This document shows, piece after piece, positions 38,750 through 39,777 of a DNA stretch of 64,000 nt. The notes under the pieces were generated by a model, which was given only the letters and a program-made list of their open reading frames with translations, had not been told where the DNA came from and did not search any database. The DNA is from Ramazzottius varieornatus (lineage: Eukaryota; Animalia; Tardigrada), in the NCBI GenBank assembly GCA_001949185.1, contig BDGG01000022.1, positions 62,001 through 126,000 of the forward strand. Reading direction: 5' to 3'. Position 1 is the stretch's first letter, and each line of letters begins with the position of its first letter. The position numbers and the translations under genes were made by a program.

Positions 38750-39777
38750 TTACATCATTTCATCCGTGCGTCCAAACTTGTAGACCAAAGCTCTGCAAAG
38801 ACGGAACTGTATGAGCACACACTGATGCCGTCTTGCTTAGCTTGCATGCACAGCTGCTCCATCTGCCAAGACTTACGCCAGAAATATGAAGAGATTCTGC
38901 AGGAACAAGCCCACGCCCGGCCATTTGTCATTGTCTGCAATGCGCAATCACGATTATAACTAGGCCACTCTGACTACGCGTACCCATATCGGTCTGACAA
39001 CACCAAGCATTCAGATTAGCATACTAGGAACTGGTCCAGGTCCGCTGCCCACAACGTAAGTCTGGAAAAGGATCCAGGTGGCGGCAATGAGAGCGGAGAA
39101 ACCCAGGAGGAAGCCTAGAAAGAGCCAGATGCGAGCACCACGCTGGCCCAAGAAGCCGTCCGAGAAGCCTTCTGCAAGACGTCAACACACATCAGTTCAG
39201 TAAGGTAATGCGTGAGTTGATCCGGGTAGAAAATTTCAGTGAAGAGTTTACCTCCCCGAATTTGCCCATTCGACACCATGTTGATCCTAGGAGACAGCCC
39301 AACCTGATCATAAACACTTGCTAACCACTGAGAAGTATCCGTAGAACTTACATGATGAAGGCGATGGTAGAGACCACTCCTACCACGTGATAGGCATGGT
39401 GGAACTCTCCTTCCGCCGGATTAGTAACGGCCACGTCTGTAACACAAGGACGTGTCATGTCAAGCTGCGCATGACGTCAACGCAAACGACTTCATCGCAC
39501 ACGACTTCATAAGGCAATGCGTGAGTTGATCCGATTAGAAAATTTCAGTGAAAATTTTCACCTATAATGCACCACCATCCGATCGCGAACTGAAATACAA
39601 AGCAACAACCTGTCAGCACCTCAAAAGAAAGCCAGATCGTAACGGGAAGAGAGGACTTACCAGGATCCCAGCGAAGGCAGATGAGAGCACATTGCGCTTT
39701 TCGGTTAACTCGAACAATCCTCCACACGTGCGGACTGATTCCTTCACGTTACCCATCAGCTCACCAACCGACGCCAT
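38750..39777 (-). CDS. TMEM50: Transmembrane protein 50 (UPF0220), 7 exons
   Basis: [75 protein letters not shown]. Confidence 0.93.

What the first reader, a model, noticed from the sequence alone, without database searches (positions are those of the whole stretch)
39172..39561. Two different introns of TMEM50 are homologous: possible intron transposition or duplication
Seen on the minus strand: intron A (39251-39172, 80 nt) is GTAAACTCTTCACTGAAATTTTCTACCCGGATCAACTCACGCATTACCTTA...GTTGACGTCTTGCAG. Intron B (39561-39437, 125 nt) is GTGAAAATTTTCACTGAAATTTTCTAATCGGATCAACTCACGCATTGCCTTA...GTTGACGTCATGCGCAG plus 28 extra nt. Similarity starts at the donor GT and covers all of intron A. The flanking exons are unrelated, and both introns are phase 1 after AG. 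Inference: one intron was copied to a new position in the same gene, by reverse splicing or an introner-like element. Such events are rarely caught.
Basis: partly seen in the sequence, partly recalled or inferred. Interest (0 to 1): 0.72.

Follow-up and report, generated by a model that had tools for sequence, protein, structure and literature searches.

The report
Tardigrade intron copied within its gene
Two spliced introns of one tardigrade gene are about 90% alike although the exons around them are unrelated, so one was likely copied, probably by the splicing machinery, into a new spot 185 bases downstream, a rarely caught case of a likely new intron with its parent still beside it.

Summary
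The gene is TMEM50 of Ramazzottius varieornatus (spliced model 170/170 identical to RvY_18935). Introns 2 (B, 125 nt) and 4 (A, 80 nt) are both spliced in transcript contigs of three studies. They match at 71 of 79 aligned bases; the other 14 intron pairs of the gene and the flanking exons are at chance level. A second sample has the same sequence, which argues against misassembly. It is not an introner: 53 Mb of DNA contigs held no further copy at 80% identity or more, while a control repeat drew about 380 contigs. A published introner screen also scored this species negative. Protein fragments that look like genomic ORFs of related tardigrades read straight through site A, and one appears to keep an intron at site B. 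So A is likely the new intron and B its parent (inferred from proteins; their DNA was not fetched). Local whole-intron copying is about 80% likely. The route is unresolved: reverse splicing (0.45) or microhomology-templated DNA repair (0.33). The closest precedent is four same-gene intron pairs in Oikopleura. This is a new member of a known but very rare kind.

The parts
39661..39777 (-). TMEM50 exon 1, coding part (ATG at 39777; transcript contigs reach upstream to about 40099)
39590..39660 (-). Intron 1, 71 nt, phase 0; position shared with other animals; unrelated in sequence to A and B
   Evidence: 9 homolog alignments start here
39562..39589 (-). Exon 2, 28 nt, ends in AG before intron B
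39437..39561 (-). Intron 2 = B, 125 nt, phase 1 in codon D49; inferred parent copy
   Evidence: spliced; homology to A; acceptor-like start of relative P0009
39548..39561 (-). 14-nt perfect palindrome at the start of B (imperfect in A)
39480..39509 (-). 15-nt tandem duplication inside B (13 of 15 identical); one unit in A
39437..39464 (-). Last 28 nt of B, behind an internal CAG at 39465; holds a branch-point-like TTGAC 24 nt before the true acceptor; about this much sequence is missing from A
39352..39436 (-). Exon 3, 85 nt
39287..39351 (-). Intron 3, 65 nt, phase 2; widely shared position; retained only 35 nt upstream of A
   Evidence: 15 homolog alignments start here
39252..39286 (-). Exon 4, 35 nt, ends in AG before intron A
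39172..39251 (-). Intron 4 = A, 80 nt, phase 1 in codon E89; inferred new copy; no residues added or lost at the site
   Evidence: spliced; read through in relatives P0006, P0007, P0009; protein colinear with Hypsibius at this site
39025..39171 (-). Exon 5, 147 nt
38935..39024 (-). Intron 5, 90 nt, phase 1; unrelated in sequence
38877..38934 (-). Exon 6, 58 nt
38793..38876 (-). Intron 6, 84 nt, phase 2; unrelated in sequence
38750..38792 (-). Exon 7, coding part to the stop codon

Best explanation
Introns 2 (B) and 4 (A) of this tardigrade TMEM50 gene are spliced, homologous sequences between unrelated exons; A is likely a new intron made by copying B into an exonic AG^A site 185 nt downstream, most likely by the spliceosome reverse-splicing the excised B intron into its own gene. 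Shown: splicing, homology, sharp boundaries, and no third copy at 80% identity or more in the DNA contigs. Inferred from protein fragments: A is absent from relatives and B is older. Inferred and untested: the RNA route. The target would be the nascent, partly spliced transcript (then reverse transcription and gene conversion) or the displaced DNA strand of an R-loop. A fully spliced cDNA is less likely, because intron 3 survives only 35 nt from the site. Later change (8 substitutions, one 15-nt repeat unit, about 30 nt near the 3' end) accounts for the present differences. Local whole-intron copying by any route: about 0.8. This route: about 0.45.
For: Both introns are spliced at the stated ends in 3 of 3 RNA-type runs. 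71/79 aligned bases are identical, starting at the GT and ending at an AG, in the same orientation. The flanks share only AG before and A after the intron; exon similarity p 0.50-0.57. No codon is gained or lost at site A relative to Hypsibius and a mollusc. No further copy in 53.1 Mb of contigs: depth over 39201-39604 equals the single source contig (21.9), while the control repeat reaches 2562.8. P0007 (54/58 identical to this protein) and P0006 (22-kb contig) start just after the intron-3 site, run on into unrelated sequence at intron 5, and cross site A unbroken. P0007 shows the same read-through Ser that the window's own unspliced frame shows. P0009 carries a 23-residue in-frame insert at the intron-3 site and crosses site A. 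It begins with an Ala before D49 that 0 of 106 homologs have and that an acceptor ending in GCAG would give. Precedent: four same-gene intron pairs in Oikopleura were ascribed to reverse splicing (PMC3879977 passage), and two laboratory transpositions were seen in yeast (as cited in PMC10996645).
Against: No call tests an RNA intermediate. The best-scoring alignment ends A at B's internal AG (score 96.8 vs 88.4), which no contig shows used as an acceptor; a DNA copy could stop there more easily than an excised lariat. The shared AG and A are also what microhomology would need. Reverse splicing in vivo is described as rare or undemonstrated, and cDNA routes favour loss over gain (PMC3443670; PMC10996645). 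The polarity rests on predicted proteins whose DNA I could not fetch. P0007's contig is only 924 nt and could be a partly spliced transcript. P0009 is a single fragment and may simply start at a contig edge. The Hypsibius gene structure was not seen.
Confidence: 0.45

Rival explanations
1. DNA-level templated insertion. A break or stalled fork at site A was repaired by a 3' end ending in AG that annealed to the AG before intron B, copied B up to an AG and rejoined. Selection kept it because it happened to be spliceable. The outcome is the same (local B-to-A copy) without an RNA step.
For: Both junctions share short microhomology (AG on the left; CAG then A on the right; 2-nt junction ambiguity at both introns). 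A aligns best when it ends at B's internal AG. Intron 3, 35 nt away, is untouched. New Daphnia introns are ascribed to break repair and often carry internal direct repeats like B's (PMC4202315 passages). Desiccation-linked DNA breaks in anhydrobiotic tardigrades are recalled, not checked here.
Against: The templated-insertion signature described from yeast, and used to search human data, is an inverted copy from within 100 bp (PMC8421209 passages). Here the copy is direct and its template lies 185-310 nt away, although selection for splicing would remove inverted copies. The copy starts exactly at B's donor with no parent exon bases.
Confidence: 0.33
2. A and B are independent insertions of a small intron-generating element (introner) whose other copies are lost, unassembled or more diverged.
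For: End-to-end similarity and AG|GT..AG flanks fit the introner pattern (PMC9860276 passages). One unidentified piece of about 20 nt lay in bin 39100-39200 at the 80% setting. Logan contigs drop some sequence.
Against: No other contig over 39201-39604 at 80% identity, although A and B are 83-90% alike and the control found 50-90-nt matches at about 80%. Only 1 contig was laid at 85%. No copy elsewhere in the 64-kb window. R. varieornatus and Hypsibius are scored 0 in the introner column of Gozashti 2022. No significant fold (z 0.05-0.39). By inspection of the ends there is no terminal inverted repeat. Two independent hits 310 nt apart with none elsewhere is very unlikely.
Confidence: 0.09
3. 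Both positions are old, and the sequence of one intron was replaced by the other through ectopic conversion or reverse splicing into an existing intron position.
For: Most suspected reverse-splicing events in Mycosphaerella were at positions that were already intronic (PMC3443670 passage).
Against: Site A is crossed unbroken by 14 of 14 exon-bounded fragments, including the two that group with the tardigrades (95/89 support), and by P0009. This reading would need several independent losses.
Confidence: 0.05
4. The copy went the other way, or both introns are recent: A (short, without the repeat) is the parent and B is the copy that later grew by internal duplication.
For: A's length (80 nt) is typical of this gene's other introns (65-90 nt), and B has a tandem duplication. 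No homolog alignment breaks at site B either (0 of 157; 9 of 9 fragments starting at intron 1 cross it), so B is not pan-animal.
Against: The closest relative found (P0007) lacks A, and a more distant one (P0009) seems to have B but not A.
Confidence: 0.07
5. Assembly artefact, or a shared functional intronic RNA (snoRNA, mirtron).
For: The best DNA run may be the source of the window.
Against: Three runs of another sample cover the introns with 0 differences (X5 39100-39563, X6 39220-39920). The copies differ at 8 positions plus indels. Rfam gives no hit inside either intron at E up to 10 (5 weak hits, none within 39172-39251 or 39437-39561). Folding is no better than shuffles.
Confidence: 0.01

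Closest known systems
Same-gene nearly identical intron pairs of Oikopleura dioica (Denoeud et al. 2010; original not held; seen as summarised in PMC3879977, and PMC4122922)
   Same: A pair of similar spliceosomal introns inside one gene, no dispersed family, read as intron transposition by reverse splicing; four pairs among about 75,000 introns there.
   Different: Here the pair is older (about 10% diverged, with indels), has canonical GT-AG ends, lies in a tardigrade, and has some outgroup evidence for which copy is new. Their identity threshold and outgroup tests I could not read.
Intron transposition as a proposed mechanism (Yenerall and Zhou 2012, PMC3443670, passages; Lee and Stevens 2016, only as cited in PMC10996645)
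   Same: An excised intron re-inserted at a previously intron-free site of its own or another transcript, keeping donor, branch point and acceptor.
   Different: The 2012 table lists 14 events, from Mycosphaerella and Oikopleura only. The RNA step is not shown here, and about 30 nt near the parent's 3' end are missing from the copy.
Introners and introner-like elements (Gozashti et al. 2022, PMC9860276: passages, methods section 15, supplement rows; Simmons et al. 2015, PMC4540971, passages)
   Same: End-to-end similarity between introns at non-homologous positions, in sense orientation, after an exonic AG.
   Different: Only two copies, in one gene; the family definition needs at least four. 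No inverted ends or stable fold. The species is scored negative in that screen.
Intron gain by double-strand-break repair or templated insertion (Daphnia neointrons, PMC4202315; MMBIR templated insertions, PMC8421209; passages)
   Same: Insertion at a short repeat or microhomology; internal direct repeats in young introns.
   Different: In Daphnia the source of the donor sequence is described as unclear (PMC4540971), and the described templated insertions are inverted and within 100 bp. Here the source is a whole neighbouring intron in direct orientation.
Cryptococcus gained intron homologous to others in the same gene (Sharpton et al. 2008, as cited in PMC3514964)
   Same: A new intron similar to introns of its own gene.
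   Different: That case was ascribed to a repetitive gene structure; here the exons are unrelated and TMEM50 has no internal repeat at these sites.

Membership tests
Same-gene intron transposition pair (Oikopleura type) | Both sequences are spliced introns of one gene | tested here: met
   3 of 3 RNA-type runs
Same-gene intron transposition pair (Oikopleura type) | Similarity confined to the introns; flanking exons unrelated | tested here: met
   (exon p 0.50-0.57)
Same-gene intron transposition pair (Oikopleura type) | Similarity runs from donor to acceptor of both introns | tested here: inconclusive
   The donor end is clear. The acceptor fits either B's internal AG or its true AG with a 30-nt gap, 71/79 both ways.
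Same-gene intron transposition pair (Oikopleura type) | One position is new (absent from relatives) | tested here: met
   Indirect, from predicted proteins: site A crossed by 14 of 14 exon-bounded fragments including tardigrade-like P0006 and P0007, and by P0009; DNA not fetched
Same-gene intron transposition pair (Oikopleura type) | RNA intermediate or reverse splicing | not testable with these tools
   no call bears on it directly
Introner (Gozashti 2022 definition) | At least four similar introns in the genome | tested here: not met
   two copies; none further in 53.1 Mb of contigs at 80% or more; threshold; species scored 0
Introner (Gozashti 2022 definition) | Copies in unrelated genes | tested here: not met
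Introner (Gozashti 2022 definition) | Target-site duplication or terminal inverted repeats (many, not all, families) | tested here: inconclusive
   Only AG is repeated at both ends, which the paper says cannot be told from a splice-site AG. No inverted ends by inspection; not scored formally.
Intron gain by tandem genomic duplication of exon sequence | Intron resembles its own exons | tested here: not met
   A and B vs spliced mRNA score 17 and 14; shuffle means 16.1 and 17.1
Intron transfer between paralogs or repeated domains | Same position in homologous exon context | tested here: not met
   codons 49 and 89 of a non-repetitive protein; exons unrelated
Microhomology-templated insertion (MMBIR type) | Microhomology at both junctions | tested here: inconclusive
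   AG on the left and 1 nt on the right; too short to separate from splice-site requirements
Microhomology-templated insertion (MMBIR type) | Inverted copy of a template within 100 bp | tested here: not met
   direct copy, offset 310 nt; signature
Intronic snoRNA or mirtron | Rfam match or stable intron-spanning hairpin | tested here: not met

The most novel reading that the evidence does not exclude
Ramazzottius makes new introns by copying whole introns to new sites in their own genes as a recurring process: the spliceosome inserts the lariat into the gene being transcribed, or desiccation-induced breaks are repaired from the neighbouring intron. Such pairs would be invisible to introner screens, which need four copies and filter out pairs from similar proteins. 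A laboratory animal would then hold a dated series of parent-child introns that can decide between RNA and DNA routes of intron gain.
Probability: 0.2. Interest if true: 0.8.

Novelty: new member of a known kind. Interest (0 to 1): 0.52.

Why it matters
Where new spliceosomal introns come from is a long-standing open question, largely because the source sequence is almost never found: 0 of 168 novel Caenorhabditis introns had one (PMC9169325), and a 2012 review counted 14 transposition events from two lineages. Here a new animal intron appears to sit 185 nt from its parent, with splicing confirmed, a dispersed family excluded by a controlled search, and a direction suggested by relatives. One pair cannot fix the mechanism. 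It does name a cheap, decisive test in a cultured, sequenced animal: collect all same-gene intron pairs and ask whether their ends match the parent's splice sites exactly.

Tried and rejected
No whole genome was held, so the genome-wide search was done by laying DNA contigs. The piece table was cut (649 rows not shown), so a piece of about 20 nt in bin 39100-39200 is unidentified; like bumps occur in two bins outside the introns. The run search listed no holder on record as RNA; the spliced contigs come from runs guessed to be RNA. The metagenome scan gave 5 loci from 86 stretches, with match lengths that leave no room for introns, so no intron positions. The third homolog search, aimed at site B, returned only P0009. 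The map of alignment breaks in 157 homologs shows 0 breaks at B and 2 starts within two residues of A (P0102, P0120, both at residue 91, unexplained). It is biased to long hits and mixes annotated isoforms with raw ORFs, so it is weak evidence. Rejected: exon-derived tandem duplication; diverged siblings among the other four introns; snoRNA or mirtron; B's last 28 nt as a copy of nearby intron sequence (p 0.13-0.68); B's last 28 nt as homologous to exon 5 (p 0.22). Also rejected: sliding or concurrent loss of the intron that other animals have near residue 100, because tardigrade-like P0006 and P0007 lack both it and A. Other close direct repeats in the window are not intron pairs of this kind; the 48-49 kb ones are coding repeats. 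Earlier scan findings: none for this genome or sequence; eight archaeal, viral, plant or bacterial cases by words, not bearing on this. Paper searches for a prior report (Ramazzottius + intron gain; introner + tardigrade; Ramazzottius/Hypsibius + intron position, loss or novel intron; listings only) showed none on this pair. A search for TMEM50A gene structure gave nothing usable. The library lacks most subscription papers, including Denoeud 2010.

Full report
1. Observation. The two sequences are at the stated places on the minus strand: A, 39251-39172, 80 nt; B, 39561-39437, 125 nt. BLASTN of A against the window finds B at 83% over 72 nt, E 3e-16, and nothing else below E 0.15. The local score is 83 against a shuffle maximum of 27 (1000 dinucleotide shuffles); the other 14 of 15 intron pairs in the gene score 11-16. 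A global alignment has 71 of 79 columns identical, with 4 transitions and 4 transversions, about 0.11 substitutions per site. Similarity begins at the GT. The flanks share only AG before and A after the intron, and tests on the exons give p 0.50-0.57.

2. The gene and its splicing. Contigs of three runs from three studies, guessed to be RNA, each skip six GT-AG introns, including exactly A and B; the DNA run carries the stretch in one piece with no differences. That DNA run may be the window's own source. Three runs of another sample also cover the introns without differences: X5 over 39100-39563, X6 over 39220-39920, X4 in two overlapping pieces. The spliced model is 170 residues and identical to RvY_18935 (GAV09386.1) of Ramazzottius varieornatus. 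It has 123 residues identical to Hypsibius exemplaris TMEM50A. B interrupts codon D49 and A codon E89, both in phase 1, with no residue gained or lost at either junction.

3. Anatomy of the pair. B has a 15-nt tandem duplication that A lacks and begins with a 14-nt palindrome. A can end at B's internal CAG (39465) with a 2-nt gap, or at B's true acceptor with a 30-nt internal gap. Both give 71/79 identity; the scores are 96.8 and 88.4. B has branch-point-like motifs 24 and 19 nt before its true end, inside the part A lacks, while A has one 21 nt before its end (motif scan only). Both donors lack the +5 G that three of the other four introns have, and both follow an exonic AG. Neither intron folds better than shuffles (z 0.05-0.39) or matches Rfam. 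Neither resembles the mRNA.

4. Is there a family? At 85% only 1 contig was laid. At 80%, with a dispersed repeat at 41.7-41.9 kb included as a positive control, 381 records were laid. Depth reached 2562.8 over the repeat but stayed at the single contig's 21.9 over 39201-39604. The control pieces shown were 50-90 nt at about 80% identity, so copies as old as A and B should have been seen. Caveats: contigs drop some sequence, the piece table was cut, and a piece of about 20 nt in bin 39100-39200 is unidentified, with like bumps in two non-intron bins. Gozashti et al. 2022 list R. varieornatus and Hypsibius with 0 in the column I read as introner presence (supplement rows). Their method keeps families of four or more and removes pairs from similar proteins (section 15), so a same-gene pair would not be reported (my inference).

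5. Which copy is new? No eukaryote genomes were searchable, and the metagenome scan gave only matches without room for introns. Short proteins called on raw contigs helped instead. P0007 is 54/58 identical to this protein and shares its 90% cluster. It starts just after the intron-3 site, crosses site A unbroken, and at intron 5 shows the same read-through Ser as the window's own unspliced frame, followed by unrelated residues. P0006, from a 22-kb contig, does the same. Both group with the two named tardigrades (95/89; tree on the 30 closest of 157 homologs plus this protein, 50 columns). In all, 14 of 14 fragments bounded by the intron-3 and intron-5 sites cross A, though several of them are probably annotated isoforms rather than raw ORFs. 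P0009 is closer to this protein than Hypsibius is over residues 49-92 (35 vs 31 matches). It has a 23-residue in-frame insert at the intron-3 site, crosses A, and begins Leu-Ile-Ala before D49. Ala at that place occurs in 0 of 106 homologs, and the window's own intron-5 acceptor reads Ile-Ala-Asp in frame, so this looks like an acceptor at site B. Outside tardigrades, 9 of 9 fragments starting at intron 1 cross B, and no alignment of 157 breaks there. Breaks pile up at introns 1, 3, 5 and 6 (9, 15, 35 and 7), fitting my recall, unchecked, that these four are shared with the human gene. Reading: B is a tardigrade-lineage intron and A a later copy. Against: none of this DNA was seen, P0007's contig is 924 nt, P0009 may start at a contig edge, two alignments start within two residues of A, and a targeted search for more site-B fragments found none.

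6. Mechanism. Shown: two spliced homologous introns, sharp ends, no family. Inferred: B to A. Open: the route. Reverse splicing explains the exact donor start, the sense orientation and the same-gene target. Because intron 3 survives 35 nt away, a partly spliced transcript or the displaced strand of an R-loop (model in PMC4540971, and PMC10996645; passages) fits better than a spliced cDNA. It needs a later loss of about 30 nt from A or a later gain in B. Templated DNA repair explains the AG microhomology and an end at the internal AG without further steps, with selection removing unspliceable copies. It departs from the described signature of inverted copies within 100 bp (PMC8421209, passages). 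I put reverse splicing at 0.45, DNA repair at 0.33, a vanished introner at 0.09, the reverse direction at 0.07, replacement of an old intron at 0.05 and artefact at 0.01.

7. Known kinds. [quoted passage not shown] Yenerall and Zhou list 14 transposition events from Mycosphaerella and Oikopleura (PMC3443670, passages). Two laboratory events in yeast are cited in PMC10996645. A Cryptococcus same-gene case was ascribed to a repetitive gene (PMC3514964, passages). A survey of animal amylase genes found no within-gene transposition (PMC3096672, passages), and none of 168 novel Caenorhabditis introns had a source (PMC9169325, passages). PMC4122922 and PMC4202315 were also read as passages. The pair fails the introner test and the exon-duplication test. 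It meets the same-gene transposition pattern except for the ambiguous 3' end and the untestable RNA step.

8. Verdict. Real, and apparently unreported in the open library searched (listings only). It is a new member of a known but very rare kind. Its value is as a parent-child intron pair in an animal with some polarity evidence, and as a prompt for a genome-wide search that could separate RNA from DNA routes. As a single case with the route unresolved, interest is 0.52.

Noticed in passing
window 41693-41904; also 5425-5585, 10065-10208, 20477-20574, 54073-54176, 63871-63950: A high-copy dispersed repeat of short units in direct and inverted arrangement; about 380 contigs of the DNA run lie on it. 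Possibly a MITE-like or Helitron-like element (guess). Used only as a control.
   Followed up: no
window 48031-49116, minus strand: Repeated cysteine-rich coding exons that look like granulin domains (label recalled from the motif, not searched); the similarity is exonic.
   Followed up: partly
window exon 5, near residue G100 (about 39134): Four homolog alignments end here and one has an insert here, suggesting an intron in other animals; this gene and tardigrade-like P0006 and P0007 lack it, so it was probably lost earlier than A was gained.
   Followed up: partly
homolog proteins, residue 117 of the reference: Seven homolog alignments end at residue 117, suggesting another lineage-specific TMEM50 intron absent here.
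   Followed up: no
window 290-456 and 2885-3052: Inverted pair, 73% over 169 nt.
   Followed up: no
window 29180-29288 and 29983-30099: GGATA-rich repeats matching each other in both orientations.
   Followed up: no
window 6688-6748 and 6950-7010: Pair of short palindrome-rich direct repeats 262 nt apart, 77% identical.
   Followed up: no
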